From a virus (lineage: Duplodnaviria; Caudoviricetes), in the IMG/VR virus record IMGVR_UViG_3300046514_000337, positions 1,423 to 65,422 of that record: 64,000 nt of DNA. One strand, written 5' to 3'. Below, piece by piece: positions 14,250-41,748 of this stretch. The position numbers and the translations under genes were made by a program. The notes beneath the pieces are model-generated. The model worked only from the letters and a program-made list of their open reading frames with translations, ran no database searches and was not told where the DNA came from. Positions within the stretch are counted from its first letter, which is position 1. Each line of letters opens with the position of its first letter.

Positions 14250-14268
14250 TGAGGACAGGATCTCCGTT

Positions 14269-14556: not shown

Positions 14557-14602
14557 GTGGCGCGTCTCCGTTTCGGCGAGTTTACCACTTTCACACGTCG
14601 TG

Positions 14603-15330: not shown

Positions 15331-15342
15331 TGAGGATCGGCG

Positions 15343-15618: not shown

Positions 15619-15640
15619 GCTCGCCCTGGCCCCGGCGCAA

Positions 15641-16354: not shown

Positions 16355-16587
16355 GAGGTTTCTCCCTGCCCCACTCAGCCGTCATGGCCTCCTCGTCAAA
16401 CTCCAGATCCGGCTTGATTTCCTTCAGCACCCCCACCACGAAGCGCAGCCCCCGCTCGCAGCGAAGGTGGTGATCCATGCACTCGTCGAGCCGCCGGCTC
16501 AGCGCCTCCATCCGCTCGTGCAGTATGTCGTCGCTCATCGTGATCGCATCGTCAAATAATAAACGTCGGCGTCGATTTTTTTGAGCT

Positions 16588-17514
16588 TCACGGACGCTGC
16601 CACAGGCTAAAGTTCTTAGCCTGCAACGCCGAAGCAACGTAGGCATTCAGCATAAAAAAGAAATGGTACGTGTCGGCCAACGAGTAGTTCCCCCCCGCCG
16701 AATAACTGGTCGATGCCGTATTCACCCCGTTGAAGAACCAATCCGCCAGGCCCGTTCCGTGGTTCAGGTTCGACGTGACCAACCGCATGCCGTAAGAGTT
16801 CCACCCAGTAGCGCCAGACGATCCAGCCATAACCGAGGATAAATCGTTTACGACGTTGGTATCGCCGGTGTTGATGCCGCTTTGGAATGTCTGATCGTGG
16901 AAGGAACCGGACAGATGCGATCCGTAATATTCCATCGCATCAAACTCGATGTTGTGCTGCACCGACGGGCCAGAGCCGCCGGTCACAAACTCGGTAGTTA
17001 CCGCCCAGAAAGCTGGCCACCACGAACTACCCCCCGGAATGCCAGGCGGCCCAGCCGATCCTTTGGTAAAGCTGTAAGAAATCTCGGCGTAAAACCCGCC
17101 CTGGATCGCGGTGCCGACATACCCCGAACCGCCATCGGTGCGGATGGTTGACAGCTGCTGAGCGTCCCAAGAGTTGTCGCCGAGGAGACTGATCTGGCCG
17201 CTGGAAAGCGTAAACGACGAGGAGGACTGTGGTCCCGGAGAGTTCTGCCAGCCAGAAATCTGTGCGCACTGCGGCCACGTATTGTGGAGGTACCATTGGA
17301 AGCCGCTGGCTCCGGTATCGTTGAGGTCGATCGTGCTCAGGCTAGTCATTGGGTCGAACGCGACCAGCTTCGTATATCCCCACTGGGCCGCTGCCGCCGG
17401 AATGGCAACTGGGGGTGATCCTCGCAGATTCGCAGCAGCCCGCGTGATGATGGCTGGCGCGGCCAGCGCCGATGCCGTCGCGATCAACCTCCGCCGTGGG
17501 ATAAAGAGTGTCAT
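16588..17514 (-). CDS. GH16-family glycoside hydrolase with Tat signal peptide
   Basis: PRRRLI...AAA twin-arginine leader; WWPAFW and EFDAME (ExDxxE) motifs. Confidence 0.75.
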   Translation of the reverse strand: MTLFIPRRRLIATASALAAPAIITRAAANLRGSPPVAIPAAAAQWGYTKLVAFDPMTSLSTIDLNDTGASGFQWYLHNTWPQCAQISGWQNSPGPQSSSSFTLSSGQISLLGDNSWDAQQLSTIRTDGGSGYVGTAIQGGFYAEISYSFTKGSAGPPGIPGGSSWWPAFWAVTTEFVTGGSGPSVQHNIEFDAMEYYGSHLSGSFHDQTFQSGINTGDTNVVNDLSSVMAGSSGATGWNSYGMRLVTSNLNHGTGLADWFFNGVNTASTSYSAGGNYSLADTYHFFFMLNAYVASALQAKNFSLWQRP

Positions 17515-18683
17515 GGTGTGGCGTAGTAGTCTTGCGCGCTGGTGCGATACGCGGCCCGGTCTCCACTACTCATTGCCCCGGTCGCCTCGAAAAACTCCCC
17601 CTCATAGCCTATGCCCACAGTGGAAGAAGAATCACTAATCTGGATCGGTCCTGCGGGATCGGCAAAACCAAAGGTTGTTCCGGCGTTAAGACTGCTGGTC
17701 AGCACGCCATCGACATTGGCGGACGAAGACGCGCCGTTAAACACCACCGACACAGCGTGAACCGTATTATCAGTCGACGTAAAATTACCCGAAGCGGCCC
17801 CAGCGAAAAGGTGCCTTGAATTTGTGCCGGTGCCGAAGATACCAAACCCATGCGACACGAAAACGTCGATACTAGCTAGAGCGTTATCCGAGTACGCCCC
17901 GCCAATGGTGGTTGGTTGTGCGTCTCCGCTGGCCGGATTTGCGCTGGCCATATAGCGCTGGCCGCTGCCCCCGGTGTAAAAGTTGACGCACGGCAGAGTA
18001 GTGTTGATGCAATTAAACGACAGCAGCGGAATTAAGCCCGCGCCAGTTTGCACAAGGTCCGGAAACGAAGCGGCAACCTGGTTATATTGCCGCGTCACAT
18101 TGCACGTCGTTGCAGCGCAGAACGTCGCTGCCCCGGCCGTGTCGAAGTTGCCCGTATTGAGGATGTTGAACGTCTGCGTAGTGCTGTCGGACGCCCGCTT
18201 AATGTCACACGCCTTGTTTGTCCCCGTGGAATAGGCGGCGCTCACACCACGCGCGCAGCTAACGAAATAATGGATCGTCGCAGCCACCGCATCCGCCGGC
18301 AACGCGATCGACGTAAAGATGCCGGAGGTTCCGGAAGCACTCGTATTGTTGTGGTCGCGCACGCTGACAGTATGATTGCCTGTCGGTGCAGCAGGGGCAG
18401 TTGTTGTGAACGAGAATGAGCCGCCGCCAATTGTAGGGCTACTAACCGGATTGTAGCCTCCCGCGTCGAACTCAACATCAATGGCGGTGACGGTGCCGGT
18501 GTAGGTGCCTGAGACCGTCATCTGTGCGCCCGCGTTCGGGTTTGCTGGCGTGGCGACGGTGACGCCTGTTCCGCCGCCGCCGCCAAGCGCACCGCCGGCA
18601 CCGAGCAGGAGCATATCGGCTTGCGCCGATGCCGAGGCCAGAAGCAAAACTCCGGCAAGGAGAGATGCGCGCACAGTCGTCAT
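17511..18683 (-). CDS. secreted protein: Ig-like domain plus ConA/AbfB(GH54)-catalytic-like domain
   Basis: Signal ...LLLASASAQA; SAAYS...ACDIKRASD...FCAATTCNV..YNQ. Confidence 0.65.
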   Translation of the reverse strand: MTTVRASLLAGVLLLASASAQADMLLLGAGGALGGGGGTGVTVATPANPNAGAQMTVSGTYTGTVTAIDVEFDAGGYNPVSSPTIGGGSFSFTTTAPAAPTGNHTVSVRDHNNTSASGTSGIFTSIALPADAVAATIHYFVSCARGVSAAYSTGTNKACDIKRASDSTTQTFNILNTGNFDTAGAATFCAATTCNVTRQYNQVAASFPDLVQTGAGLIPLLSFNCINTTLPCVNFYTGGSGQRYMASANPASGDAQPTTIGGAYSDNALASIDVFVSHGFGIFGTGTNSRHLFAGAASGNFTSTDNTVHAVSVVFNGASSSANVDGVLTSSLNAGTTFGFADPAGPIQISDSSSTVGIGYEGEFFEATGAMSSGDRAAYRTSAQDYYATP

Positions 18684-19564
18684 CAGTGGTCCGAATACGT
18701 TATGAACCCCGAGACATTCCCGGCACCGCTTTGGATTAAGCAAAGATGGTCAGCCGAGACTTTCATCTGGATAATAGGCATGAAACTCGTGGCGGAAAAA
18801 CCACCGTTTGCCGCTACCTGCGTTGTGCCTCCGCTCCCACCAAGAAGGTAAGCGGTTCCTGTCCCGCAAACCGATCCTGTGCCCTCATTAATGGAGATTC
18901 CTTGCTGACTCGCAGATACGAGGACGATCGAACAAATGTAGCCCGTCGCCGACATTGTGTGGAGGTCGGTAGAAGTTGTCTGGTTAACTGCGAGCGTGTT
19001 GGGACAACCGGCGTTTGTCCCAGCTACGATAGCGCCCTGTGCCGCGTTCAGGATGCCCCGCAACAAGCTGTCGACCGTCCACGATCCGCCAGTACCGCTC
19101 GTTGCCGCGCTGTCGCCCTTTGCGCCCAGCGTGACGCTCGATCCGTCGGCAATCGACGTTCCTACCGGCGTCATCGAGGCGATGCCCTGGATGGTGATGA
19201 CATCCGCCGAGGCCGTGCCTGCGGTTCCGAGTGCAGGTTGCTTCGCCGCCGTGGCCGCTCCCGTTGGCAGCGTGATCGTGCCGCTGATGTTGGTGATGTT
19301 CCACGTTCCGCTCTCGGCAGCAAGCAGCGGCGTCATCGAGGCGATGCCCTGAACGGTCAGCACGCCAGCATTGGCCGATCCGGCCGTGCCCAGGATCGAG
19401 AGGCCGGCCGCATCAGAGAGAAGAACCTGTGCTTCTAGAACGCCAGCCCCGACGTCTTTGTAGTGCAGCGTAGTTCCGCTGCCAGCCGTAACCGTGAGGT
19501 TGTCGGCGGCGAAGGCAGAACCGAACGGTAGCGCCAGCAGCGACGCGAGGAAAAGCCGCTTCAT
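18683..19564 (-). CDS. secreted fibre-like protein
   Basis: MKRLFLASLLALPFGSAFA signal; G/S/T-rich; internal repeat TxQGIASMTP (24-bp DNA repeat 19166-19189 / 19328-19351). Confidence 0.7.
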   Translation of the reverse strand: MKRLFLASLLALPFGSAFAADNLTVTAGSGTTLHYKDVGAGVLEAQVLLSDAAGLSILGTAGSANAGVLTVQGIASMTPLLAAESGTWNITNISGTITLPTGAATAAKQPALGTAGTASADVITIQGIASMTPVGTSIADGSSVTLGAKGDSAATSGTGGSWTVDSLLRGILNAAQGAIVAGTNAGCPNTLAVNQTTSTDLHTMSATGYICSIVLVSASQQGISINEGTGSVCGTGTAYLLGGSGGTTQVAANGGFSATSFMPIIQMKVSADHLCLIQSGAGNVSGFITYSDH

Positions 19565-20349
19565 AGCACCACCGCCACATATTGAGAGTTGCAGGCATCG
19601 GAAAAAACGAGGCTGTTGGAGCACCCACCACCGCCGGTGACGGTAAAGCTGCCCGATGTGTTCGCAACAAACGTGTGCGGCTGCTCGCGCACACCGACGA
19701 CATGCGGGCCGGCAGAGGCGATCACTACATCAGCCGCAGTGGAGATCCACGCACCGGCCCCGATCGTAGGCGACACCAGCGCCGCGAAAGCCCCGCCGTC
19801 CACGTTGTAGTCCACGCCGGTCGGCGCGGTGCCCGTGTAGGTGCCGGAGATGTCGAAGCCAACTCCTGCGGTTTGCGGCGATGGCGTCGCCACGGCGATC
19901 GTCTGCGTCGGCGGGGCAGGACTTGTCCCACCACCCCGCATCGACAGGTAGCCCGTGCCAATCTGGATGGTAAGGACCTGCGTGCCGCTGCCCGAAATAC
20001 CAGCCAGGTATGTTGCAGTTCCAACGGCAATTGTCATCTTTTGGCCCGCTGCGACCGGCTGCCCGTTCGCCGTCGTAACCGTTACGCTGCTGTCCCCGAG
20101 GCGGACGAAAACAACGTCCGTGCCGGTATTGGTGATCCCAATGTTTGGGCCACCAGCCGGCAACGCCACGCGCGAACTGCTTCCCGTCGCCGAGAGCGTC
20201 GCGTAGCCTCCCGCAACGCTCACGAACGGCTGCGGCGAGACAACGGGCACGGTAGCCCCGTTTGGGGTGATTGCCGTGCTTTGCGCCCGCGCGCCCCCCG
20301 CCATCCCGACGAGCAGCAGCGTGGCAACAATGAGGAGACGAGCGGCCAT
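19561..20349 (-). CDS. secreted protein with beta-sandwich and Ig-like domain
   Basis: MAARLLIVATLLLVGMAGGARA signal; C-terminal Cys pair. Confidence 0.7.
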   Translation of the reverse strand: MAARLLIVATLLLVGMAGGARAQSTAITPNGATVPVVSPQPFVSVAGGYATLSATGSSSRVALPAGGPNIGITNTGTDVVFVRLGDSSVTVTTANGQPVAAGQKMTIAVGTATYLAGISGSGTQVLTIQIGTGYLSMRGGGTSPAPPTQTIAVATPSPQTAGVGFDISGTYTGTAPTGVDYNVDGGAFAALVSPTIGAGAWISTAADVVIASAGPHVVGVREQPHTFVANTSGSFTVTGGGGCSNSLVFSDACNSQYVAVVL

Positions 20350-20419
20350 CAGAGCACTCCTTCGGAGGTGCGGGGTGTAGCACGGGCGGAGAGGGGATGG
20401 GGAGATATCGGGCATTCAC

Positions 20420-21364
20420 TTAGCACCCCGCCGACGACAGGCCCCACGCAGTCCGCTGATTCGTGCAAAGCGCGGTGCGAACCCCAGCCGTCACCGCGAC
20501 ATTATCTATAAAACCCATCTCCACGGCATTGATCGGATCGGAGGCGGATGCGCTCGGACTAAACGCACGTGACGTGAAGGCTTGCGAGACCCCCGTTACG
20601 GTGCCCGTCGTATCTGCTCCGTCGATGGAAAGCACAGATGATGCACCATTCACAACCCCGATCATCGAGTGCCACACAGTACTGCCCGAAACCGTTATGA
20701 CCCCCGACGCACCGGCAAGCTGATAGCCGCATCCCGTCGCACCACCGCTCGTTTGAACCGTCATTCTATTGCCACTACCCGCGCCATTCCCGCTCTCTAC
20801 CATGGAAAACCACGCGCCAGTTGCACCACATGTGGGCCGCTGAAAGACCTGCATAATCGTGGTTACAACGGAAGATGTGAAAGACGCTCCAACTAAAACC
20901 GAAGTGGTCTGTCCCGTCGGTCCCTGCATGCACGGGAACGAAGTATTAATGCAGTTTGTTATCAACAGCGGTCGGTTTGCTACCGTTGCCTGAGTCCAAT
21001 TGCTACCGCTCCGCGAACCCTGATTATACGCTATCTTCACATTACACCCAGCCCCTGGGCATGTGTGTGTGCCATCCACGACCGCCGCTATGAGGTAGCC
21101 CGTCAATGGATCGCTAATCAAATCCGAACAACCATCATCGACGCCCGCGGTCGAGTGGCAGGCGTTGATAGCCGGCTTCCCGAGTTTCGCCGCACTACAG
21201 GAACGGACCCCTATCCAATCCGTAAATGGAACCCCGTTCTCAATAGCAATATCGCACGATTGATTATACACGACTACCTGCGGGACCGATTGCCACGAGG
21301 CAGCGGCAGGTGGCGGAGACGCCGCCACCAAACCAAACACCGAAGCGATCAGAAGATGCTTCAA
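20420..21364 (-). CDS. secreted ConA/AbfB-like protein, paralog of 17511-18683
   Basis: TTG start overlapping the upstream stop; signal LKHLLIASVFGLVAA; shares CNV...YNQ, PLL..NCINT..PC and NGASS....DG. Confidence 0.65.
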   Translation of the reverse strand: MKHLLIASVFGLVAASPPPAAASWQSVPQVVVYNQSCDIAIENGVPFTDWIGVRSCSAAKLGKPAINACHSTAGVDDGCSDLISDPLTGYLIAAVVDGTHTCPGAGCNVKIAYNQGSRSGSNWTQATVANRPLLITNCINTSFPCMQGPTGQTTSVLVGASFTSSVVTTIMQVFQRPTCGATGAWFSMVESGNGAGSGNRMTVQTSGGATGCGYQLAGASGVITVSGSTVWHSMIGVVNGASSVLSIDGADTTGTVTGVSQAFTSRAFSPSASASDPINAVEMGFIDNVAVTAGVRTALCTNQRTAWGLSSAGC

Positions 21365-22119
21365 AGTTGGTAGCCCCACGCTGTTACCGATACCACCCCG
21401 CCCGTCCCCGGGGCCGCTGACACCACCGCTATTGCCGTGTTTGTCGCGCTCGAGGGCACGCACGGCATGAACACCTCCTCCGTAACCCCTAGCCCTGCCG
21501 CATTCGGAGCCGTCCACTGCGTGAAATTTATCGTCGCCGTGACAACCCCGGTCACCGTCGCATTCCCAGTCGCCGCAGCCGTGGCGTTCGCGCGGATCGA
21601 GAAGCCGCAGATGTAAGTCTTGAGAGTGGCATTCGCAGCGAGCGTCGCTGTCGTTGCGCCCGTCGTCCCCGTTGCTGTGGCCGTGATCGGGATCGCGCCG
21701 TTAGGATACGGACCGGCAGTGTTGCTCGCAATCGTAGCAAGCGATGTGTTGGCGGTGGTTTGGAGCGTCGATGTGGCAGGATTGGCCGGGAAATTGGTGA
21801 CAGATGCATTGACGCCCGGAACCAACACAGCACCAGGCGATGTGCCGTAGTTTGCCATCGCCCCAAGCGTGCCGCCGCCCCATGTCGTAATGCTGTCCAC
21901 CCAGGGCACCGTACCCTGTGTGACCGAACCGCCGCCGCCGCCGCCGCCGCCCGCCGTACATAGCGTGCCGGTCTGATCCATCGTGATGATGCCGAAACCC
22001 AGCGGATAACCAGCCGTGCCGCAGGTGGCAAGGACACGCCCGCTAACGTCCTGAGCGTGTGCGTCCCCCGCCAACCAAGCGATCAGTAGCGCAGCGGCAA
22101 CGAGGAGGCGAGCAGCCAT
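21361..22119 (-). CDS. secreted fibre-like protein
   Basis: MAARLLVAAALLIAWLAGDAHA signal; T/A/G-rich; C-terminal YICGF beta domain resembling that of 18683-19564 (YICSI). Confidence 0.7.
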   Translation of the reverse strand: MAARLLVAAALLIAWLAGDAHAQDVSGRVLATCGTAGYPLGFGIITMDQTGTLCTAGGGGGGGGSVTQGTVPWVDSITTWGGGTLGAMANYGTSPGAVLVPGVNASVTNFPANPATSTLQTTANTSLATIASNTAGPYPNGAIPITATATGTTGATTATLAANATLKTYICGFSIRANATAAATGNATVTGVVTATINFTQWTAPNAAGLGVTEEVFMPCVPSSATNTAIAVVSAAPGTGGVVSVTAWGYQL

Positions 22120-22168
22120 CAGGGCACTCCTTCAGATGTGCGGGGTGTAGCACGGGCGGAGCAGGCGG

Positions 22169-25100
22169 TCACGGCGGGGCTCCCATGGTGATGCGGCCCT
22201 TTGCGTTCTCCTTCATCCTGGCACGCAGGGCGCGGATGTCCTGCCGCTGCTGATATGCTTCCCCGCGCTGTGGATTGGTGATCGACTGCGGGGCCGGTTG
22301 AATGCCGAAGAAGTTGAGCGCCTGCGTCAGCGACGACGCCCCCGCTTCCCACGTTTTCAACCAGCCGCGCCAAGAGAACGGGATGGCTTGGTTCAGCAGG
22401 TATTCAGGGTAGGATACCATCGGATTGTCTACGCCAGGCATATTGATGATGCCGCCGTAGTAATCTCGGTTCTTGCCCAACTCAATGCCGGTCTCAAAAA
22501 GCGGCTGGGTTTTATTTCCGATCGTGCCAAGCGGGTCGTTCTTAAACGCCATCACGTCCTTGATGTAGCCGGGTAGCGTCGTGCGATCTGGCACTCCAGG
22601 CTGCGTTTCTGAGCCAGTCCTTGGGTAAAAGTAGTCCAGCAGCGATTGCGGTCCCTGTCCGGTCATCGCATAATTCAGGAGTGCGCCGTACATGCCGGTG
22701 ATGATCGGCATGGCGATGACATAGGCCATGCGGTTCGTCAGTTCTGGCTTCCGGCCCCGCACCATGTCACCAACGGCCTTCACAGCATCGACACCGCCAC
22801 CGCCGATCTCGCGCACACTGCCGAGGTTCCACCCCACCGAGCGCGTCGTGATGAACGCCAAGTCCTTCGACACCTTGTTCCAGAACAGGTTATCGTAGAC
22901 GAGTTGCCCCATTCTGTTGTCCACGCTGTCCCATGCCTTCGTCATGGCGGCGGCGAACTGTTCGTCGGTGGCTTCTGGATTGCGGCGGAGGAAATCCGAG
23001 GCGAGTTCGGAGAAGACCCCGAGCTTGGCGCGCGGAACCATGACGCCCATAAGCGGCTGATTAAGTGTATCGATGAAACGGCCCACAATACGGAGGGGAG
23101 CAGCGATCGGCGTGTCCTTCGCCATCTGCCAGGCGTCATGCAGTATTCCTGATGGATTTTTCAGATCGCCCATGTTCTTGATGAACGAGCCGGCCGCTGT
23201 GGAGCGGTAGAACGGATCCATGGCAATCCGCCCACCGCCCTTGACGAGCGCCTGCACGAGACGCCGCATCTCTGGGCTGGCGTTCTCCGGGTGTAGATAC
23301 GCCTCCCGCAGTGCCGAGCCGCGCGCCACCGTCGAGAAGATCGTCGTCGGCGACAGCCCCTTGGCCATCGTTCCCAGCCCACGGATCGGCTCACCGCGGC
23401 TCAATTGCTGGATGCCGAGCGCCAGCTTGCTCATCATCGTGTCGAAGGCGATGAACGTGGCGTGGAAGCCGCTGAACGAAAGCTGCGCCGAGTTCAGGGC
23501 ATTGCCGGCCCCGCGAACCGCATCATAGATTGACGAGTGTCCGGCCAATCCGCGCGACACGTAGTTGTTGAAGACGCGCGCCACCTGTTCCGGCGCCCAC
23601 CAATTGCCGTATTCCTTGCGGCCATACTCGCCCGGCTCGGTGACGCGAGGCTGGAATGCTGTGTCGTCGAGCTTTGCGTAACCGGACGCCCGCGCCGCGC
23701 CCTCATCATTGTAGGGCACCCAATGCGCAAGCCCGCTGTTCTTGATGTCCTCAGCCAGCTTCACGCCATGATAGAAGCGCTGCATTTCGTACAGCTTCAG
23801 CAACTGCATCTCGATCGGGTTCTTTGTAACCGGGATCAGCCCGGCATCCATGCCCTCGCGCTGCGTGTCGAACGTGCGCTGCTTCAGGAACGCACCGCTG
23901 CCCTTGAGTGGTGACTTGCCCCGCGCCTGTGCCTGCGCGATGCCTTCGCCACGGGCCTGAGCCGCCGCTTCTTCGGCCTCGATGCCCGCCTTCCACTCTG
24001 GGTAGTTCGCCCAGATATGCCCCATGTAATTCTCGCGCAGCGTCTTCAGGTATTCGGGGCCTAGCGAGCGGATTTTCTGCGCCCACTGTCCCTGCTGCTG
24101 GCGAAGTGCGTCGATGACTTGGTTCAGTTCCGGCGTTGGCTGCGCTTCCCCGCGCTCGCGGCGGTCAGTGATAGCGAGTTGTTCCGCCTCGGGCAGCCGA
24201 GCGATCATGTGCCCGAACCGCTCGAGCGCATCCGTGGATCTGGCGTTCGCTTGGGCACGCTCAGCCGATGACGCGCGGATCAGATGCTCCGTGCTCTTGG
24301 CCTGCGGCCCGCGCGATGTCGGGGAGAAGAGTTGCTTGACCTCATCGGCTACGCGCTTGGCGAAGCCGAGGCGATCTTTGGCGGCGGCGGCGAGCGGCAA
24401 CTCCTTCTCCCGCCGCCCCATCTGTGCCTCTGGCGCCGGCCTCCGCCCCTGCGCCGTCTCAAACCGCTGCGCTGCCGCCTGGCTCTCTGCCAGCGACGGC
24501 GCATGAGCAGCCGGCTCGCGCGCACCGATCTCTCCGCGCTGCATCGCGCCGAACACGTCCTCCGCCGTGCGGAAGCCTCGCCCAGCGAGCGCATTGCGGA
24601 GCCGGTCGAAGAACTGCGTGATCTTCGCCCCGAGCCGCTGGATGATCGGCACCGTGGCCTTCGGTGTCGTGGAGTAGCGCGCGAACTCCTCCGCGATGGC
24701 CTCGCGCATCTGCTGCTGCGGCGTCTGCTCGGGGTAGCGCTCGGCGATGCGGTGCTGCTCTGCCCAGTTGCCTCGTTGCGCTGCCGCCTCGAGCGCCTTC
24801 ATCTCGCCGGGCTTGAACACGCCCAGCGCCTCGAGGGCATGCACCGCTTCGTGGTTCAGGTTCCACGCGGTGCGTTCCGGCTCGATCGCTGCGCGGATCA
24901 GGCGGCCCAGTGTGTAGCCGAACACCTGCTCCTCGTGCCCGTCGGGGAAGCGGACGCGGAAAGCGTCGTGCGCGGCGTCGTACGTCTCAATACGTACGGA
25001 CTTGCCCGCGATGCGTTGAGCGGTCTCTACGGCTGCGCGGACGGCTTCCGGGTGGGGGCGCTCATCGGCTGCTGTTGGCTCACGGCGTCCGAACTCGGGC

Positions 25101-28100
25101 GCGCCTTCATGAACGCCGCCGCCTTCCGGGCGAACGCCTTGATCTCCGCGTCCGACATCGGCTTCTCCTCCGGGTCCGGGTCGCTGATCCAGGGAGCCCA
25201 CTGCGCGGGCGATGGCATCTTCGGGCACTCCTTTGCTGCGGGCGAGGTCACTGATAGCCGTCGCGTAATCGACGTTGATTCCCTCGCTGTCCCGTCCCCC
25301 GAGCTTACCATAAAGCTCCTTCTCCGGATACCACAGAATGGCCTGAAGATCAGCGTTGGTGAGGTTGATCCCCTCTTGCGCGAGCAGCTCGCGGGTTCTG
25401 GCAACGCGCTCTCGTATCCACTGCCGCTGCGCGCCGGATTTGGGTGTCTCGTTAAGACCGTCCTTACCGGCAACCACGCGCTCCGCCGCGAGGACTAGTT
25501 CTGACTTGGTGTACTTGCCAGAGTTGTAGTCTTCGCGGTTAGCGTTGAAGTGCTTTTCATGTGCGTCAAAGATGCGGTTGGCTTCTTTCAGCAACCCCGG
25601 CGTCGTTTGCGGAACCTTCATCTGGTTCAGCGCCATTTCTGTCCGCAGTCGCTCCTGCTGCTTCGCAACCACCTCCGGTGATAGCCCGACCAACGTCCCG
25701 GTAAGCCTTCCCCATGTCCGCATGAACCACAGGTCCATGGCGACCGGATTATAGTTGCCGTTGAGGTTCTGGTAGAAGCCTTGGCCGATCTTTGGCCCGA
25801 GAATGGCCGACCCTTTGACCGCCGTGTCCAGGTTCTCGCCACCAATCTTGTGGCCCATGGCTGTCAGTTCTCTGACCGTGAAGTCCCTGGAAAGGAAGTC
25901 GCGCAAGCCATCTACCCCGCGGCCAGGCGCAATCTGTTCATGCGCGTCCATCAGCGCGTTTAGCTTGGCAAAATTGCGGTTCATCGCCGCCGCTTTTTTT
26001 GCCTTGATGTCCGTCGGGAAACGCCCGTTTTCCTTGAAGTATGCGTAGGCTGGCTCTGCCAACCGCACGTTCAAGGGGACAGTCTCGCCCTGGCTGGTGA
26101 TCGCGAGCGCTGCCGTAAAGCCCATCCGCGCGTTCGGATCTGTCTCGATTTCCGGGTGAATGGTGGTAGCCGCCGCCATCGCCTGGCGCACTTTCCGTGT
26201 GTACCAGTCGAAGCCCGAGCCGCCCGTTCCCCACGCTCGTTGCAACGCTGCTTTGGCTTCGGACGCGAGTGAACGCGACAGCAGTTCATCGGTGTGCGGC
26301 GCGGGACCTTCGATCTTTCCCGACCGAATGCCGAGCATTCTGAGCGCGGATTGACCGCGTTCCATAAGTTGCCGACCTACAGTCGGAACGGCAACCGAGC
26401 GCAATGGCATGGCCGGATAGCGCGGATCAAGAAGATCGAGGGACGAAAGATTACGCTCAAGTTGCTGCCTGACCCCGACTGGATTGGCGCCGGCAAAGCC
26501 GCGGCGTCCGAACAGCGGGTTCTGCTCCGTCTCCTTCGGTGCAAACAGCCCTTCGTCCGCCGGCTTCTGCCCCCCGCGCGGTCCTGCTTGGTCGCGCGCC
26601 GCCTGCGCCTGCACCGCCGATGGCTCGGTGCCCAGCAGCCCAAGTTGGCGCGGATCGTTGCGGATCGTCGGTTCGGCTGTTTGCGCCGTCGCGCGCTCTG
26701 GAGGCAGGATCTGCACCGCCTCGTATGCGCGGTCATAGCGCGCCATGAGGGCGTCACGGGCTTTGCGAGCCGTAAGGTATTCATCATCCCCGATTTTGCG
26801 CGATCGGTAATCAGCCAATGTCTGCTGGTAGGATGGCTCCCCTGCCCGGAATGCTGCGTCCGCATCCGTGAGTTCTTGCCTGATTTGCTGCGGTGATCGT
26901 TCACCCAGTAACGGCGCACCAGATTGCGGCGGAACAGGCAGCCGCCGCCCGAACGGCACATCCTCGACGTTGCTTCCGAACCGCGTCGCCTCGTGGATCG
27001 CCTGCGCAACCGGCATCCCGTACTGCGCAAGCTGCACCGCATGATCCAGCGTCGCCCCGCCGAGCTGCACACCAGCGTCGTCAGCCGCCATGCGCACGTC
27101 TTCCGTCAGCGCCTCACGCCGCGCTTCCTCGCGCCCAGTAACATCAACGCCCGGCGTGATTTGCTCCGGCAGATGATTGCCGTATTGCTTCTGCCCCTTC
27201 AGTTCGCGGCTGACGAGATCAAGGAAATCGCCGATGGTGCTGTCCATTGGCAAGAAGCCAGCCTCGGCCGCAGCCTCCCGCGCGTAGTCGAGTTGCATCC
27301 CAGTTTTGCGCACGAGCCCGGGGCGAGCAATGTGCGCATCCATGGCGCGGAGATCGCCATGCGGCTGCAGACCACCGCGTTCGATTAGGAATGGCAGCAG
27401 CGAGGTACCGGGATCGGGGCGGCCAATTGCACCGATACTGGCGTCATTCGCCGCGCGCGGGGGGCGAAACGCTCCTACGCCTTTCTCGAAAGCATCGACC
27501 GCATGTTTCGCGGCCTGCTGAGGTTCCGCCCCGCTTTCGGATGCTCTACGATATTCGGCCAGTAGATTACTCAGCGTATTTTCGTAGCCGCTAGGTTGGC
27601 GCATCGCTACATTAGGGAAATCTGCGGTCCCTTCCATAAATTCCGCGAACGCCTCATGCGACGCGCTTTCCGCTTCTAAGTGCCCAACTCCGCCTTCCAT
27701 AGCATCGGCATACACGCGGTCGGCGTAATCCCATGCGGCCTGCTCAATCCGTGACGGCGGTTTGACGGCAGGCGTGGAGCGCACCTCCATCGCCGGACGC
27801 TGATCTGGCGGTACGGCTTCGGGCGCAGTTGCAGGCGGGACAGAAGCAACAGGCGGCGTTGCTTCCATAGGCTTCGGTTCAGGTGGTGTAGCCACGGCTT
27901 GCGCCGTCTGTTCCAACTCGGTGCGCGCCGCCTGATCTGCCCGCTCGACCGGCTGAATGGCTGCCGCTGCTGCCGCTGGCTGCTTCACGGCCTCCGTCGC
28001 CGCCACGCGCTGCGCTGCCTCCGGGCCGATGCCGTCCTCGTTTTCGATCTCCTCTGGCGTCCGCACACGCGGCACGGCGGGCGGGGTCTCTGCCGACGGT

Positions 28101-28993
28101 GCCGGCCCCGATGGGTGCCCCGCAAGACGGCTCACAACAGCATGCCCCGCCGCAGGAATCGCCGTCGTCACCGCGGCGTTCAGCGCCGCTTCAGACATCC
28201 CCTCCGTGACCGGCTTACCCTGCTCGACGTTCTCCACACCGCGCTGCGCCACCGCTGCGCCGGGTTGAGCGACGAACGCCTGGAACAGAATGTCCTTCGC
28301 CGCCTGCTTGAACGGAGCCCAGCCGAACAGCGCCCACGATGCGCCCGTGAACGCGCCTTCCTGTCCGGCACGCAACAGCGCCCGATCGAAGGCACCGTTC
28401 GGATCGCCGCCCTTCGCCGTTTCCTCCGCAAGATACGGCGCGAGCGACTGAACCGCTGACACGCCGCCGGCACCCAGTGCAGCCCCTACCAACGGCCCGA
28501 CGGGTCCGGTCGCTTCGGATGTGGTCGCGCCAGCGAGGCCGCCAGCAATGCCTCCGACCAGCGATGGCATGCTCTTCGCCAGCCCGTAAGCGATCTTCGG
28601 CGCGGCGCGCGACGGCGACAGCAAATCGCCGAATGAAAGCGGCTCCGTGTAGTAGGGCTGCGCTTCCTTTGGTGTCGACGGCGCGGTGCCTGCCATTGCC
28701 GCGGGCGCCTGCGACAGTTCCCGAACAGCGCCAGCCACGCCCGAAACAGCGGCGCGCGGAATATCGGAGAGCGACGGCTGCGGCTCCTCCGGCGGTAGAT
28801 CCTCCGCCTTCGCCACAGGGAGCGCCGCGCGCGAGGGGCGACCGCTGCCCTGCTGCGCGTAAAGGTTCCACGGCCCTTGCGCTGGAACAGCAGACGCCGC
28901 TGGGGGCGCTTGCTGATACAACGTCCATGGTCCAGCCGCTGGCGCGATTGGTGCGGCGGTATCGTCCTGTGGGGTGCTATCGAGAGGGGGCAC
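22169..28993 (-). CDS. large polyvalent internal virion/ejection protein (2274 aa)
   Basis: Last gene of the ejection block; hydrophobic Gly-rich N-terminal region; central GPKIG..FYQNL.G...VAMDLW..R domain; HEAVH...EAIAE metallopeptidase; helical C-terminal domain. Confidence 0.8.
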   Translation of the reverse strand: MPPLDSTPQDDTAAPIAPAAGPWTLYQQAPPAASAVPAQGPWNLYAQQGSGRPSRAALPVAKAEDLPPEEPQPSLSDIPRAAVSGVAGAVRELSQAPAAMAGTAPSTPKEAQPYYTEPLSFGDLLSPSRAAPKIAYGLAKSMPSLVGGIAGGLAGATTSEATGPVGPLVGAALGAGGVSAVQSLAPYLAEETAKGGDPNGAFDRALLRAGQEGAFTGASWALFGWAPFKQAAKDILFQAFVAQPGAAVAQRGVENVEQGKPVTEGMSEAALNAAVTTAIPAAGHAVVSRLAGHPSGPAPSAETPPAVPRVRTPEEIENEDGIGPEAAQRVAATEAVKQPAAAAAAIQPVERADQAARTELEQTAQAVATPPEPKPMEATPPVASVPPATAPEAVPPDQRPAMEVRSTPAVKPPSRIEQAAWDYADRVYADAMEGGVGHLEAESASHEAFAEFMEGTADFPNVAMRQPSGYENTLSNLLAEYRRASESGAEPQQAAKHAVDAFEKGVGAFRPPRAANDASIGAIGRPDPGTSLLPFLIERGGLQPHGDLRAMDAHIARPGLVRKTGMQLDYAREAAAEAGFLPMDSTIGDFLDLVSRELKGQKQYGNHLPEQITPGVDVTGREEARREALTEDVRMAADDAGVQLGGATLDHAVQLAQYGMPVAQAIHEATRFGSNVEDVPFGRRLPVPPQSGAPLLGERSPQQIRQELTDADAAFRAGEPSYQQTLADYRSRKIGDDEYLTARKARDALMARYDRAYEAVQILPPERATAQTAEPTIRNDPRQLGLLGTEPSAVQAQAARDQAGPRGGQKPADEGLFAPKETEQNPLFGRRGFAGANPVGVRQQLERNLSSLDLLDPRYPAMPLRSVAVPTVGRQLMERGQSALRMLGIRSGKIEGPAPHTDELLSRSLASEAKAALQRAWGTGGSGFDWYTRKVRQAMAAATTIHPEIETDPNARMGFTAALAITSQGETVPLNVRLAEPAYAYFKENGRFPTDIKAKKAAAMNRNFAKLNALMDAHEQIAPGRGVDGLRDFLSRDFTVRELTAMGHKIGGENLDTAVKGSAILGPKIGQGFYQNLNGNYNPVAMDLWFMRTWGRLTGTLVGLSPEVVAKQQERLRTEMALNQMKVPQTTPGLLKEANRIFDAHEKHFNANREDYNSGKYTKSELVLAAERVVAGKDGLNETPKSGAQRQWIRERVARTRELLAQEGINLTNADLQAILWYPEKELYGKLGGRDSEGINVDYATAISDLARSKGVPEDAIARAVGSLDQRPGPGGEADVGRGDQGVRPEGGGVHEGAPEFGRREPTAADERPHPEAVRAAVETAQRIAGKSVRIETYDAAHDAFRVRFPDGHEEQVFGYTLGRLIRAAIEPERTAWNLNHEAVHALEALGVFKPGEMKALEAAAQRGNWAEQHRIAERYPEQTPQQQMREAIAEEFARYSTTPKATVPIIQRLGAKITQFFDRLRNALAGRGFRTAEDVFGAMQRGEIGAREPAAHAPSLAESQAAAQRFETAQGRRPAPEAQMGRREKELPLAAAAKDRLGFAKRVADEVKQLFSPTSRGPQAKSTEHLIRASSAERAQANARSTDALERFGHMIARLPEAEQLAITDRRERGEAQPTPELNQVIDALRQQQGQWAQKIRSLGPEYLKTLRENYMGHIWANYPEWKAGIEAEEAAAQARGEGIAQAQARGKSPLKGSGAFLKQRTFDTQREGMDAGLIPVTKNPIEMQLLKLYEMQRFYHGVKLAEDIKNSGLAHWVPYNDEGAARASGYAKLDDTAFQPRVTEPGEYGRKEYGNWWAPEQVARVFNNYVSRGLAGHSSIYDAVRGAGNALNSAQLSFSGFHATFIAFDTMMSKLALGIQQLSRGEPIRGLGTMAKGLSPTTIFSTVARGSALREAYLHPENASPEMRRLVQALVKGGGRIAMDPFYRSTAAGSFIKNMGDLKNPSGILHDAWQMAKDTPIAAPLRIVGRFIDTLNQPLMGVMVPRAKLGVFSELASDFLRRNPEATDEQFAAAMTKAWDSVDNRMGQLVYDNLFWNKVSKDLAFITTRSVGWNLGSVREIGGGGVDAVKAVGDMVRGRKPELTNRMAYVIAMPIITGMYGALLNYAMTGQGPQSLLDYFYPRTGSETQPGVPDRTTLPGYIKDVMAFKNDPLGTIGNKTQPLFETGIELGKNRDYYGGIINMPGVDNPMVSYPEYLLNQAIPFSWRGWLKTWEAGASSLTQALNFFGIQPAPQSITNPQRGEAYQQRQDIRALRARMKENAKGRITMGAPP

Positions 28994-28996
28994 TGC

Positions 28997-31900
28997 CTAC
29001 GGCCCCGCTGGCGCCCACGAAGTCTGCACGCTCGGATCGCCGCCGAGGAACTTGAAGCCCTGCACCACATCGCCGACTTTCGGTGCAGGTGGCGGCGCCG
29101 GAGCACCGCTCGGCTGGTTCAGTCCACGCGCCGTCTCCCCTGCCGCATGTGCCTGTGCCGGCGTCAGTTGCGGTTTGCCCATCAGGTCTTTGTAGTTTTC
29201 TTTCAGGTCCTGATCGGTCATCCGCAAGATGCGATCCTGCTCAGCCTTGTCCTTTGCCTGAGCTAATGCGGCCTTCCGTAGTGCGATATTCTGTGCTGCC
29301 ACGTCGCTGCGCGCCGCCTGATCCGGCTTCATGTTGATCGGCTGATCGCCCGATTTCATCGTGCCGGTGCGAGTGTCCATGAACAGCGGCATTCCCTGCC
29401 CATCTGTCCCGACGTAACTGAAGTGCCCGTTTTCAGCCCGCGTCGATGCTGCCTGCGCTGCGAGGTGCGCAGCATACGCTTGATCGCGCGCCGCCATTGA
29501 CTGAACGCGCTGCCCGTAGATGTCCGTGCGGTTCTCCGCATTGTGCGCCATCTGCTGCCGATACTGATCCAACTCCTGCTGCTTGAGCTGGTTGTATTCC
29601 AACTGCTGCTGCCGTAGCTTCTGGTTCTGCGCCCAGGTCAGCCCCTCGAGCGCGCCGTGGCCAATGTTGACGCTGGCATACGGTGACGACCCGCTCAGAA
29701 TACCGAGTCCCGCCGCCATCAGCGCCGCGCCCGGCGTTTGCGTCCAGTCTCCGGTGCCATGCGTACTCGGCGGCCCAAGCGCTCCGTGCGGGGCCGGCGC
29801 GGCTTCCTGCGCATCCTGCGCTGCCGTCACCTGATGCGCTGGTGGAGGCCCAAGCGCCCCATTGCCCGCCGCAGCAGGGCCGCCCGCAACGCTCGTGCCC
29901 ATCGGCTGCGTTATGTCGATGCCTGGCATTGCCGCTTGCAGCGCCTTGACTGTGCGCGGGTCCCATCGCTGCACCGGGATAATGTCGGCTACCATCGTCT
30001 GCGTGTCTTTATCAGCATCGTCAGCGGTGGGGTATTTGCGCAGATCGACGCCAGCCTTCGGGGCGAAATCGCGCCAGGTGCCGTCTGTAATCTGGTAGAA
30101 GCCGCGAGCGCGGCCCGAACTTGTCATGGGACCAGCGCCGTGCTCGCGGCCTGAATTTTCGGCAGCCCCAGTAACATCATGCACGATGTCGAGCGGCCCA
30201 CGGGGCGCACCCAGTACGTTGCCAGCCGAGGCGCCTGGCATCATTAGCGGAGCCTGCGGCGGCCCGAGGGCAGTGGCAGGTTGAGGAGCCGACGGCGGAA
30301 ACATCCTTGCCCCAGAGTAGGTATCCGGCACGGAGTTTGGATTGCGCAACCCGGCGGTTTCGCTCGCAATGTCAAAGTGCGCAGGCAAGTCTAAGGCTGC
30401 ATCAGGCATCGACTCCGGTGGGGGGGCCTGCATATGCTGCCACGCACCGCGAGCACGGCTACCAACCGCTCCCAACGCGCGCGCCATCGGACTGTCCGGT
30501 GCAATGAAAGGCTCCGCTCCAGCATCGCTCGGCCCACCGTAATCGTCATCTGCGACGCCACCGCTCGCCATCCCCATACCCGGCAAGCCGCCCAGCCCCT
30601 GCATCATCGGCTGAGGCTGCTGCGCGAGCGCCGGATCGCTCTGCGGCATCATCTGGCGCCGCCGCAGCACCGCCTGCACCAGCCCGCCCTGCTGCGAGCC
30701 AGGCGGTACACGCGCCTGCAACTCGCGCAGCTTCTCCGTCGGCATCGAGGACAGTTGGTTCAGCGCGTTCCCGTACATCGGGTTGCCAGAGCCGAGCCCC
30801 GCCTGCGATACCGGCGACAGGCCCGGCGTCGGCCCGAGGGCTAGCGGCAGCGCACCGCCGTCGTCGTAGCCGATCGGGCCGCCGAGTGCGCGATGTGGGA
30901 TGCGTCCGCCGCGAGCGCCGCCAGTATAGTACCACCCGGTATCCGCAGCACCCGTCGCACCCGCAAGGCCGGTGTCTATTGCGTTGCCGCCAGAGCCACC
31001 GAACCAGTTCCCCATCCCGTTAAACGCACCGCTGTTGTACAGCCCCAGCCCTGTCAGCCCGAGCCCCGCGGCCTGGCTAGCGATCGATGGCCCCGGCGTC
31101 GTCGTACTGCCCGAACTACCCGCGCCGTCCGCACCCGTCGCCAGCCCCAACTCGAAATTGCTGATCTGATACGGGAACGCCTGCGCCTGCTGAAACTGCT
31201 GATACGGCACGTTCAGTTGCTGCTGCGCCAGCCCCTGCATCTGGTTGCCGATGCCCAACTGCGCATTGGCCCCGCTCAGCCCGAGGCCCTGCGCCTCCTG
31301 CCCCAGGTTCGCCATCCCGAACGCGCCCTGCGACGCCAGCCACGCATTCGCCTCCTGCGAGGACAGCCCCGTGCCGAGCGCGCTCTGATAGGCAGCTTGT
31401 CCTATGTTTCCGAGTTGCCCGAGTGAACCGGCCGCGCCCAGCCCCAACTGCGCATTGGTCGTGCCAGTCTGCATCGCCGCGCCGAGCGCCTGCCCGTAGC
31501 CAGACTGCAGCACGTTCGCGAGCGAAGCATTGTTGGCGAGATCCTGTTGACCCGCGAGCGTCGATTGCGCGATGGCCGCCCGGTCGCCGCCGAACGCGCC
31601 AGCACCGACAGCCGAGCCAACAAGTTGCTGCTGCTGGATGGCATCGTTTTGCTTTTGCAGCGCTTGCAGCGAGGACGTGACGTTCTGCGTGTACGGCGAC
31701 ATGAAATTCTGCACGCCGAACTGGCCGCCGAGCGGATTCATGCCCTGCCCAGCCGTAGTCGCGAACTGCGATGCCGGCCCTAAGTAGCCTTGCAGTGCCG
31801 GATTGGAATACTGTCCTACGGTGGACGCCGGGTTGACGCCGGAGGTGCTCGCGTTAATGAGGTTCGCGGCTTGGCCTAGGTATGGCTGCGCGAGGCTAGA

Positions 31901-41503: not shown

Positions 41504-41748
41504 CAGGGTTTAGCCGCTCCCTTCGCGGCTGCCAGTTCGTCCTGCGCCTTCTTCAACTCGGCGGTGAGCTGTTGGATTTTCACCTGCGCGTCCATGAGCG
41601 ACACCTTGGCGCTCAGGCACGCCATTGCCTCCTGGCCGATCACCTGGGCGGCGAACGGCGAGGTCTGCGTATCCTGCGCCGCGCATGGCGCTACTGCCAA
41701 GACCGCCAGACCCACAGCCGCCAACAGTGCGCGCATGATCTTTCCCAT
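41503..41748 (-). CDS. small secreted coiled-coil protein
   Basis: MRALLAAVGLAVLAVAPCAAQ signal; heptads. Confidence 0.65.
   Translation of the reverse strand: MGKIMRALLAAVGLAVLAVAPCAAQDTQTSPFAAQVIGQEAMACLSAKVSLMDAQVKIQQLTAELKKAQDELAAAKGAAKP

What the first reader, a model, noticed from the sequence alone, without database searches (positions are those of the whole stretch)
16588..22119. Six consecutive late genes encode Sec/Tat-exported, Cys-paired fibre, lectin and glycanase proteins
Seen: directly after the ejection genes, where podoviruses place fibres, all six ORFs begin with signal peptides (five Sec-type, one Tat), are G/S/T-rich beta proteins, and most have paired Cys. Known: tailed virions assemble in the cytoplasm and their fibres normally lack signal peptides; disulfides form in the periplasm. 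Inference: a candidate undescribed system in which appendages fold in the periplasm and join the virion at lysis, or a phage-encoded surface or matrix-remodelling apparatus. This is the best candidate for a novel system in the window.
Basis: partly seen in the sequence, partly recalled or inferred. Interest (0 to 1): 0.9.

Follow-up and report, generated by a model that had tools for sequence, protein, structure and literature searches.

The report
Phage fibre-like proteins carrying export signals
An uncultured soil phage puts bacterial secretion signals and paired cysteines on six neighbouring host-recognition-type proteins, so they probably fold outside the cytoplasm where the phage particle is built; no paper that I searched describes this for tailed phages.

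Summary
Six minus-strand genes (22119-16588) follow the ejection-protein genes of a 65-kb podovirus record. They are linked by start/stop overlaps, and each begins with a Sec-type leader. The last leader is Tat-like. Five proteins have an even number of cysteines, all in the mature part.

The leaders look real for four reasons. Homologues of three of the six (P2, P4, P6) keep them. Among the top 150 relatives of one protein, 61 carry a leader and have about seven times the cysteine density of the 81 without. A conserved N-terminal motif starts at the predicted cleavage site in leader-bearing relatives and at residue 2 in leaderless ones. Two of the six share a duplicated ribosome-site-plus-leader cassette that ends at the cleavage site.

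The labels "fibre", "lectin" and "glycanase" are only partly supported: there is a fibre-repeat family with a jelly-roll tip, a GH16-like fold with the ExDxxE motif, and a marginal GH54 match.

Export is well supported. Whether the proteins then dock on particles at lysis or act freely on the envelope is open.

This scan has noted the same theme on other DNA. I found no paper describing it for tailed phages.

The parts
22124..22147 (-). Upstream copy 1 of a duplicated junction element containing the GAAGGAG ribosome site. It continues into the P1 leader.
   Evidence: The 24-nt pattern occurs twice in the window against 0.01 expected. The alignment with the P3 copy stays similar up to the leader cleavage site and then stops.
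21361..22119 (-). P1, 252 aa. Sec-type leader MAARLLVAAALLIAWLAGDAHA|QD, a Gly run, a fibre-like middle and a C-terminal beta-sandwich. Four Cys.
   Evidence: The nearest Atlas clusters are viral hypothetical proteins (0.92-0.93), and the C-terminal 115-252 resembles CBM-like sandwiches at low TM. A segment recurs in leader-bearing fibres P0123 and L057/L058.
20420..21364 (-). P2, 314 aa. Leader MKHLLIASVFGLVAASPPPAAA|SW and 12 Cys. Its beta-sandwich domain is paralogous to the C-terminal part of P5.
   Evidence: Atlas clusters at 0.98 are viral, and 48-80% of their members carry PF09206. Homologues P0161 and P0162 also carry leaders.
20354..20377 (-). Copy 2 of the junction element, upstream of P3.
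19561..20349 (-). P3, 262 aa. Leader MAARLLIVATLLLVGMAGGARA|QS, an Ig-like domain shared with P5, and 2 Cys near the C-terminus.
   Evidence: The leader is 61% identical to that of P1 over residues 1-23 only.
18683..19564 (-). P4, 293 aa. Leader MKRLFLASLLALPFGSAFA|ADN, a conserved N-domain, fibre repeats (LPTGAATAAKQ...VQGIASMTP) and a 4-Cys jelly-roll tip.
   Evidence: 2889 representative homologues at E<=1e-3. Alignment A1. The tip model reaches pLDDT about 70 and gives jelly-roll matches of Z<=7.6, which is not specific. The motif sits at the cleavage site.
17511..18683 (-). P5, 390 aa. Leader MTTVRASLLAGVLLLASASAQA|DM, an Ig-like domain, a beta-sandwich domain and 6 Cys.
   Evidence: The C-terminal fragment P0001 matches PF09206 at 25.6 bits (cut-off 25) over 58 of 315 profile positions. 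Homologue P0003 has a leader.
16588..17514 (-). P6, 308 aa. Tat-like leader MTLFIPRRRLIATASALAAPAIITRAAA|NL, a GH16-like beta-sandwich with WPAFW and E-F-D-A-M-E, and 1 Cys.
   Evidence: Four homologues all carry Sec or lipoprotein leaders and keep ExDxxE.
22169..28993 (-). Context: 2274-aa virion or ejection-type giant protein immediately upstream.
   Evidence: No family hit. Its last 600 aa have relatives in 47 viral loci.
28997..32155 (-). Context: 1052-aa DNA ejection protein.
   Evidence: PHROG 4287, E 1e-13.
41748..43133 (-). Seventh leader-bearing fibre-like protein (MKPLFWLGLAAAFASPLAAQA|SC), with Cys at both ends. It lies between the adaptor-like gene and the leaderless 982-aa spike gene.

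Best explanation
The six genes form a late, translationally coupled block. Its products are exported from the infected cell's cytoplasm: five by Sec and P6 probably by Tat. The leaders are cleaved, the proteins fold in the periplasm, and five of them form disulfides there.

The mature proteins are built from receptor-recognition-type modules:
- fibre repeats with a jelly-roll tip (P4, and parts of P1);
- Ig-like domains (P3, P5);
- ConA-type beta-sandwiches (P2, P5);
- a GH16-like sandwich that keeps the catalytic ExDxxE motif (P6).

I judge it most likely that they bind or cut host envelope or matrix glycans outside the cytoplasm, late in infection and after release at lysis. Examples would be destroying or masking receptors, or clearing matrix around the burst cell. 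They would not be built into the particle in the cytoplasm.

Shown here: the gene structure, the leader-like N-termini and their conservation, and the leader-cysteine link.
Inferred: actual export, leader cleavage, disulfide formation, glycan targets and the biological role.

My odds for the export step alone are about 0.85. My odds for the whole statement, including 'acts free rather than on the particle', are 0.45.
For: 1. Leaders on all six. Under strict settings only one other ORF of 74 is flagged.
2. Leaders are conserved in relatives:
- P4: 10 of the 14 similar-sized relatives that I read begin with a leader, for example P0029, P0123, P0048 and P0062.
- P6: all 4 of 4 relatives carry one: P0155 Sec, P0156 with a lipobox (LTGC), P0157 and L056 Sec-like.
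- P2: both of 2 relatives.
- P5: P0003.
3. Of the 150 best P4 representatives, 61 are leader-positive, 81 are leaderless with a Met start, and 9 do not start with Met. These rows sum to 151 as printed, because one Val-start row is also among the 61. Median Cys per 1000 aa is 13.4 against 1.9 (Mann-Whitney p 2e-14). Fifty of the 61 have an even, non-zero Cys count.
4. The N-domain motif ADNxxxxTxGxG begins at or within one residue of the script's cleavage site in all 11 leader-bearing members that have it. It begins at residue 2 in all 9 leaderless members that have it.
5. P1 and P3 share an upstream element plus leader at the DNA level, and the similarity ends at the cleavage site.
6. P6, the only Tat-like protein, is the only one without a Cys pair. 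Its Sec or lipoprotein homologues keep a 2-Cys loop that P6 lacks.
7. Evidence for action off the particle: a lipoprotein form exists in the P6 family. The P4 tip domain is found on membrane-anchored proteins in Acidobacteriota genomes. The phage also has a leaderless 982-aa spike. L051, a relative, carries a leader-bearing protein with a true Pfam GH16 hit (34.5 bits) in the same slot.
Against: - No signal-peptide predictor was available; the calls rest on my own rule script.
- The Tat reading of P6 depends on choosing the ATG start.
- The Cys-leader correlation is not corrected for shared ancestry. Many leader-positive hits share one 4-Cys tip domain.
- Disulfides can also form in particles after release. 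The abstract of PMC13576161 (search listing) describes cysteine cross-links in a siphovirus tail.
- Enzyme and lectin activity is unproven. GH16 is not reached in Pfam, and the profile match to a solved GH16 is E 0.01. Both structure models are poor (pLDDT 47 and 51).
- Evidence against 'acts free': the block sits in the slot where 24 of 29 relatives with a large ORF there have only leaderless large ORFs. A leaderless P4-type fibre sits among the structural genes of a related podovirus, L122. The leader-bearing subfamily keeps a conserved N-domain with variable distal parts, as particle-docking fibres do. A seventh leader-bearing fibre gene lies inside the neck/tail operon.
Confidence: 0.45

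Rival explanations
1. Periplasm-matured appendages. Some or all of the six (most plausibly P4, P1 and P3, together with the 41748-43133 protein) are true virion fibres. They fold and form disulfides in the periplasm and dock onto cytoplasm-built particles only when lysis mixes the two compartments.
For: - The block sits in the receptor-binding-protein slot of the late operon and is translationally coupled.
- The P4 family includes leaderless fibres inside structural modules (L122).
- The same N-terminal motif starts at the cleavage site in leader-bearing members and at residue 2 in leaderless ones.
- The N-domain is conserved while the distal parts vary.
- Runs of leader-bearing genes lie inside structural modules of unrelated phage contigs: L056 has four directly after the capsid genes, and L057/L058 have seven.
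- A seventh leader-bearing fibre gene lies between the adaptor and spike genes.
Against: - I found no precedent in the papers searched.
- No docking partner is identified.
- The phage has a leaderless spike that could suffice for infection.
- A lipoprotein form exists in the P6 family, and the P4 tip occurs on membrane-anchored cell proteins.
- None of P1, P4 or P5 has a relative among 50,697 cultured phage records, so no proteome can be consulted.
Confidence: 0.33
2. Secreted carbohydrate-active 'auxiliary' or conversion genes. The block would be cargo that benefits the host or lysogen (nutrient release, adhesion, biofilm matrix) rather than part of the infection machinery.
For: - Leader-bearing CAZymes are known in prophages: 3261 of 64,678 (5%) in PMC13507307 (passages read).
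- P6 is GH16-like and P2/P5 are ConA/GH54-like.
- The region has a lower G+C content than its flanks (0.58-0.62 against 0.62-0.64).
- None of the 47 relatives carries homologues of the six.
Against: - There is no promoter or terminator signal above chance around the block.
- The genes are coupled by overlaps and follow the late genes after only 49 nt.
- No integrase was seen among the 10 further proteins that I scanned in Pfam. That scan was not exhaustive.
- P4 and P1 are fibre-repeat proteins and not enzymes.
Confidence: 0.1
3. Not exported. The hydrophobic N-termini would be structural segments (trimer initiation, burial in the tail) or membrane tethers that are never cleaved.
For: - No dedicated predictor was run.
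- Several cores are rich in Ala, Ser and Gly. From my own knowledge, this is also typical of signal-arrest-release domains, which stay uncleaved.
Against: - Each leader has the full n/h/c layout with small residues at -3 and -1.
- Leaderless homologues start exactly where the leader ends.
- Leader presence goes with a roughly seven-fold higher Cys density.
- Leader types vary within one family: Sec, lipobox and Tat-like.
- The leader cassette is duplicated as a unit.
Confidence: 0.07

Closest known systems
Leaderless tail fibres and spikes of podoviruses that lie after the ejection/internal-core genes (T7 gp17-type slot, from my own knowledge; here the relatives L006, L014, L048 and the L122 fibre)
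   Same: - Position at the end of the late structural operon.
- Modular build with a conserved N-terminus and variable distal domains.
- Fibre repeats and a jelly-roll tip.
   Different: All six carry export leaders, and five have paired Cys. There is no Pfam or PHROG fibre family hit.
Bdellovibrio bacteriovorus MAT (mosaic adhesive trimer) fibres (PMC10769870; abstract and passages read)
   Same: [quoted passage not shown] They are exported and displayed outside the cytoplasm.
   Different: MATs are encoded by a bacterium and displayed on its own surface. I did not test for sequence homology, the S74 chaperone-protease domain or a trimeric beta-helix. Here the genes sit in a phage late operon.
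Small exported phage proteins encoded next to tail or receptor-binding genes (T5 Llp, Cor, lambda Lom/Bor; recalled, no call)
   Same: Sec or lipoprotein leaders on phage proteins encoded beside the host-recognition genes. Their known roles are receptor masking and surface change.
   Different: Those are single, small lipoproteins or outer-membrane proteins. They are not runs of 250-390-aa fibre, Ig or beta-sandwich proteins.
Exported phage lysis enzymes (Sec-secreted and signal-arrest-release endolysins; PMC7312051 and PMC8541568, search listing only)
   Same: Late phage proteins that use the host Sec system to reach the periplasm before lysis.
   Different: Those have muralytic domains. None was found in the six.
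Glycoside hydrolase family 16 (beta-glucanases, carrageenases)
   Same: - WPAFW and ExDxxE are conserved in P6 and its 4 homologues.
- The best PDB sequence-profile match is a GH16 (8va4, E 0.01).
- The Foldseek top hits are GH16 enzymes (E 1e-6).
   Different: There is no Pfam PF00722 hit for P6 or its 4 homologues. The model is poor (pLDDT 51) and TM scores are 0.3-0.47. Membership is not established.
Leader-bearing prophage CAZymes (PMC13507307; passages read)
   Same: Phage-borne glycan-active proteins with SignalP-predicted leaders.
   Different: That study reports scattered auxiliary genes after excluding tail fibres. It does not describe a coupled six-gene block in the fibre slot.

Membership tests
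Sec-type signal peptide | A positively charged n-region, an uncharged hydrophobic h-region of about 9-18 residues, and small residues at -3 and -1 within about 35 residues of the start. | tested here: met
   My own rule script passes P1-P5. In the strict window-wide run, 6 of 74 ORFs are flagged. SignalP was not available.
Sec-type signal peptide | The leader is dispensable for the fold: homologues exist without it and begin at the cleavage site. | tested here: met
   For the P4 family, the motif lies at or within one residue of the script's cleavage site in 11 of 11 leader-bearing members. It lies at residue 2 in 9 of 9 leaderless members.
Tat signal peptide (P6) | A twin-arginine motif before a weakly hydrophobic core, with a basic residue in the c-region. 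| tested here: inconclusive
   RRRLI, an Ala/Ser/Thr-rich core and R before AAA are present if the ATG at 17514 is used. A public gene call starts nine codons later. The consensus S/T-R-R-x-F-L-K is recalled and only partly matched.
GH16 | Match to Pfam PF00722 above its gathering score. | tested here: not met
   No hit at E<=1 for P6 or for its 4 homologues.
GH16 | The catalytic ExDxxE motif on a beta-strand of a ConA-type sandwich. | tested here: met
   E190, D192 and E195 are invariant in alignment A2 of 5 sequences. They align to the EIDIME of 8va4.
GH16 | The beta-jelly-roll fold of the family. | tested here: inconclusive
   The Foldseek top hits are GH16 enzymes at E 1e-6, but TM is 0.3-0.47 on a model with pLDDT 51. 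Lectins and alginate lyases score close behind.
GH54 ArabFuran-catal (PF09206), for P2 and P5 | Pfam match over the catalytic domain. | tested here: inconclusive
   Full-length P2 and P5 give no hit. The P5 C-terminal fragment scores 25.6 bits against a cut-off of 25 but covers only profile positions 21-78 of 315. P0003 scores 40.4 bits over positions 14-87. Atlas clusters near P2 carry PF09206 in 48-80% of members. The catalytic residues lie outside the matched part.
Phage tail fibre families (PHROGs/Pfam) | Match to an annotated fibre family. | tested here: not met
   No PHROG or Pfam fibre hit for the six, nor a PHROG hit for 10 leaderless P4 relatives. The 'fibre' label rests on the repeat build, the tip fold and the genomic position.
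MAT superfamily (Bdellovibrio) | A signal peptide followed directly by a conserved N-domain, with mosaic distal parts. | tested here: met
   The P4 subfamily shows this layout. This is a likeness in layout only.
MAT superfamily (Bdellovibrio) | Sequence homology of the roughly 130-aa N-domain, a trimeric beta-helix, and the S74 domain in part of the family. | not tested
   No MAT sequence was fetched or compared.

The most novel reading that the evidence does not exclude
A tailed phage matures part of its host-recognition gear in the periplasm. Sec/Tat-exported, disulfide-bonded fibres and lectin-like proteins would meet and dock onto cytoplasm-built particles only at lysis. This would be a two-compartment assembly route for tailed phages. 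Leader-bearing members of the same fibre family and runs of leader-bearing genes in other viral contigs suggest it may be widespread in soil phages.
Probability: 0.3. Interest if true: 0.9.

Novelty: new variant of a known kind. Interest (0 to 1): 0.7.

Why it matters
Tailed-phage particles are held to assemble wholly in the cytoplasm, and their fibres to lack leaders. A coupled block of six exported fibre, Ig and beta-sandwich proteins in the fibre slot means one of two things. Either host-recognition parts can be made in another compartment and added late, or phages deploy a set of free, receptor-type proteins in the envelope of the dying cell.

The wider pattern supports this being more than a one-off. 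In the same fibre family, 61 of 150 representatives carry a leader. Several other viral contigs also hold runs of leader-bearing genes.

Either reading changes how receptor-binding proteins of uncultured soil phages should be predicted, expressed (periplasmic, oxidising conditions) and used for host-range work. Both are directly testable with fusion reporters and particle proteomics.

Tried and rejected
FAMILY AND SIMILARITY SEARCHES THAT GAVE NOTHING USABLE
- Pfam and PHROGs on the six proteins gave nothing above threshold.
- Pfam and PHROGs on the flanking small genes gave nothing.
- blastn of the block against 50,697 cultured phage records found no match.
- tblastn of the giant-protein C-terminus, P4, P5 and P1 against the same records found no match. 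No cultured relative with a virion proteome can therefore be consulted.
- tblastn of the six against the 47 related loci found no homologues.
- PHROGs on 10 leaderless P4 relatives found nothing.

OTHER TESTS WITHOUT A RESULT
- The promoter/terminator scan of 13000-23500 was at chance level.
- Complex prediction, three copies of P4 residues 140-293: no answer. It counts neither for nor against.
- The look-up of sequencing runs listed no RNA holder.
- Read laying on four DNA runs showed contigs identical to the window over nearly all of the block. The only different contigs were a few short, low-depth ones in run X22. This gave no information on selection or expression.
- The fold search with the P4 model gave only generic jelly-roll rows at Z<=7.6, so I name no specific family.
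- GC3-based gene calling did not separate real genes from shadow ORFs. I used ORF length, overlaps and ribosome sites instead.

LIMITS ON WHAT I COULD SEE
- Supplementary files of papers were not opened. Those of PMC13507307 and PMC10769870 might list leader-bearing fibre-like proteins.

IDEA CONSIDERED AND SET ASIDE
I considered that the six are a lysis device. No muralytic domain was found, and a separate membrane-protein cluster follows at 13791-16354.

Full report
WHAT THE WINDOW IS. The window is most of a 65,422-base linear viral record that CheckV rates about 90% complete. On the minus strand it carries:
- a terminase (58099-59793) and a portal-like gene (54106-56526);
- a tail-tube 'stabilization protein' type gene (35679-37247, PHROG 3287, E 1e-53) whose relatives lie in LUZ24-type and marine podoviruses;
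- a 1052-aa DNA ejection protein (PHROG 4287) followed by a 2274-aa giant protein.

The six genes of the finding follow 49 nt after the giant protein. A cluster of small membrane proteins lies downstream of them.

THE OBSERVATION. With the most plausible starts, the six genes are P1 22119-21361, P2 21364-20420, P3 20349-19561, P4 19564-18683, P5 18683-17511 and P6 17514-16588. P1/P2, P3/P4, P4/P5 and P5/P6 overlap by 4, 4, 1 and 4 nt. P1 and P3 each have GAAGGAG upstream.

All six N-termini pass a rule script that I wrote. It requires a charged n-region, an uncharged hydrophobic core and small residues at -3 and -1. Under strict settings the script flags 6 of 74 ORFs in the whole window: five of the six, plus one fibre-like gene at 41748-43184. 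P2 is missed there only because its leader starts at codon 52 of the maximal ORF. This is not SignalP.

P6 has RRR, a weak core and an Arg before the AAA site, which fits a Tat leader. That holds only with the ATG start; a public gene call uses a later TTG.

Mature Cys counts are 4, 12, 2, 4, 6 and 1.

ARE THE LEADERS REAL? Four independent lines say yes.

First, homologues keep them. Ten of the 14 similar-sized P4 relatives that I read begin with a classical leader. All four P6 relatives do, with different leader types including a lipobox. Both P2 relatives and the P5 relative P0003 do as well.

Second, I classified the 150 best of 2889 P4 representatives. Sixty-one are leader-positive and 81 are leaderless with a Met start. 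Nine do not start with Met. The rows sum to 151 as printed because one Val-start row is also in the 61. Median Cys density is 13.4 against 1.9 per 1000 residues (p 2e-14), and 50 of the 61 have an even, non-zero count. Shared ancestry inflates this statistic, because many positives share one 4-Cys tip domain.

Third, the N-domain motif ADNxxxxTxGxG starts at or within one residue of the script's cleavage site in all 11 leader-bearing members that have it. It starts at residue 2 in all 9 leaderless members that have it. The leader is therefore a precise add-on to an otherwise ordinary N-terminus.

Fourth, P1 and P3 share about 100 nt of DNA comprising an upstream element, the ribosome site and the leader. 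The similarity stops at the cleavage site. The 24-nt core of the element occurs exactly twice in the window, against 0.01 expected. The block thus reads as two coupled units, P1-P2 and P3-P6, each headed by the same leader cassette.

WHAT THE MATURE PROTEINS ARE.
- P4 belongs to a very large family built from repeats (…SGTWNITNVSGTVSLPTGAATAAKQPALGTAGTASADVITVQGIASMT…). The repeats occur up to about ten times in proteins of up to 2336 aa. P4's last 110 residues model as a jelly roll with only generic matches.
- Leaderless members lie among structural genes of phage contigs. One example is a related podovirus, L122, where a leaderless member sits next to the adaptor gene.
- P1 shares a segment with leader-bearing fibres. 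It has a CBM-like C-terminal sandwich in the Atlas model, at low TM.
- P3 and P5 share an Ig-like domain. The same domain occurs in a leaderless head-module protein (53082-53789) and three times in a leaderless 683-aa protein.
- P2 and the C-terminal part of P5 are paralogous. They resemble viral proteins annotated with the GH54 catalytic-domain family. The Pfam match is marginal and covers only about 60 of 315 positions.
- P6 and its four relatives keep WPAFW and ExDxxE. A profile of the five finds a solved GH16 at E 0.01, and the weak model finds GH16 enzymes first. Pfam GH16 is not reached.

So 'fibre' is reasonable for P4 and partly for P1. 'Lectin/glycanase' is a lead for P2, P5 and P6 and is not established.

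IS THIS PECULIAR TO ONE PHAGE? No.
- Among the 47 loci that encode a relative of the giant protein, none has homologues of the six, so the slot is variable.
- Forty-two of those loci have at least 3.5 kb downstream. Of these, 29 carry an ORF of 250 aa or more in the slot. In 24 all such ORFs are leaderless, and in 5 at least one carries a leader.
- One of the five, L051, carries a leader-bearing protein with a true Pfam GH16 hit. Another, L013, has four leader-bearing genes in a row.
- Several relatives also have leader-bearing proteins of 600-1045 aa upstream, in the spike position.
- Unrelated viral contigs with P4-type tips show the same pattern. L056 has four consecutive leader-bearing genes directly after terminase, portal and capsid genes, including a P4 and a P6 homologue. 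L057/L058 have seven in a row.
- The block itself is present, nearly letter for letter, in contigs of 24 soil and rhizosphere runs, some of which may be its source.
- The P4 tip domain occurs in 31 genome loci, 28 of them Acidobacteriota by record title. In the two such proteins that I read it sits on membrane-anchored proteins. This is a host lead and shows the domain working outside the cytoplasm.

WHAT HAPPENS AFTER EXPORT? This is the open step.

For docking onto particles at lysis:
- the position in the fibre slot and the coupling to late genes;
- the conserved N-domain with variable distal parts;
- the leaderless relatives in structural modules;
- the seventh leader-bearing fibre gene between the adaptor and spike genes.

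For free action in the envelope or matrix:
- the lipoprotein form in the P6 family;
- the enzyme-like and lectin-like members;
- the membrane-anchored bacterial homologues;
- the presence of a leaderless 982-aa spike.

I put export at about 0.85, free action at about 0.45-0.5 and docking of at least one member at about 0.3-0.35. The homotrimer test gave no answer and counts for nothing.

WHAT IS KNOWN. Seven full-text searches found no description of exported tail fibres in tailed phages. The closest published parallels are:
- the exported, phage-fibre-like MAT proteins of Bdellovibrio, which likewise have a conserved domain directly after the signal peptide (PMC10769870, passages read);
- leader-bearing prophage CAZymes, about 5% of those surveyed (PMC13507307, passages read);
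- Sec-dependent endolysins (search listings only).

Llp, Cor, Lom/Bor and filamentous-phage pIII are recalled parallels that I did not check here.

Earlier notes of this scan report the same theme in many other genomes and reached the same partial verdict. I did not test those notes beyond reading the MAT paper that one of them named.

VERDICT. This is a new variant of a known kind: receptor-recognition proteins of a tailed phage that are fitted for export. The bolder reading, two-compartment assembly, is not excluded.

Noticed in passing
window 41503-43133 (minus strand): A 461-aa fibre-like protein with a Sec-type leader and Cys at both ends (41748-43133). It is followed by a small leader-bearing coiled-coil protein (about 41503-41748). 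Both sit between the adaptor-like gene (43135-43830) and the leaderless 982-aa spike (38155-41103).
   Followed up: partly
window 20354-20377 and 22124-22147: A 24-nt element upstream of P1 and P3 occurs exactly twice in the window. Together with the leader it forms a duplicated cassette of about 100 nt that ends at the cleavage site. It may also be a regulatory or translational element.
   Followed up: partly
window 53082-53789: A leaderless head-module protein carries the same Ig-like domain as P3 and P5 (42% identity to P5 over residues 43-158).
   Followed up: partly
L062-L092 (for example L072:7005-10611, L088:6366-8327): In the eight Acidobacteriota/Terriglobia loci that I read, two show the P4 4-Cys tip domain ending a 430-441-aa protein. 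That protein has a conserved cytoplasmic N-terminus (MRIKIIG...), one membrane span and fibre-like repeats. In one of these two loci, and downstream of the match in five others, lies a beta-helix protein of about 720-830 aa, and in five of these six it ends in GCCD or GCCQ. One Methylomirabilota locus (L088) holds a 653-aa form of the anchored protein. This may be a cell-surface fibre system or a prophage remnant.
   Followed up: no
L051:12749-14407: A distant relative of this phage has, 1.2 kb after its giant protein, a 552-aa leader-bearing protein with a Pfam GH16 domain (34.5 bits).
   Followed up: partly
L013:13979-17742; L057:3734-11229; L056:7427-10853: Runs of four, seven and four consecutive leader-bearing genes in other viral contigs. 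The L056 run lies directly after the terminase, portal and capsid genes and includes homologues of both P4 and P6.
   Followed up: partly
L011, L012, L033/L044, L035 (upstream of the giant protein): Low-GC relatives carry proteins of 669-1045 aa with classical leaders in the spike position. One (L012:3511-5877) has PD40/SGL beta-propeller hits.
   Followed up: no
window 16000-22600 in runs X20, X22, X23, X24: Contigs of four soil or rhizosphere runs match the block with 0 differences over nearly all of it. 24 runs hold 88% or more of its sampled words. The phage appears widespread in one type of habitat, but the runs may belong to one campaign.
   Followed up: partly
window 32152-32736 and 8124-9179, 2859-4055: Other content seen while annotating: a RecT recombinase (8124-9179) and an N6/N4 DNA methylase (2859-4055). 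No integrase was found among the proteins that I scanned.
   Followed up: no
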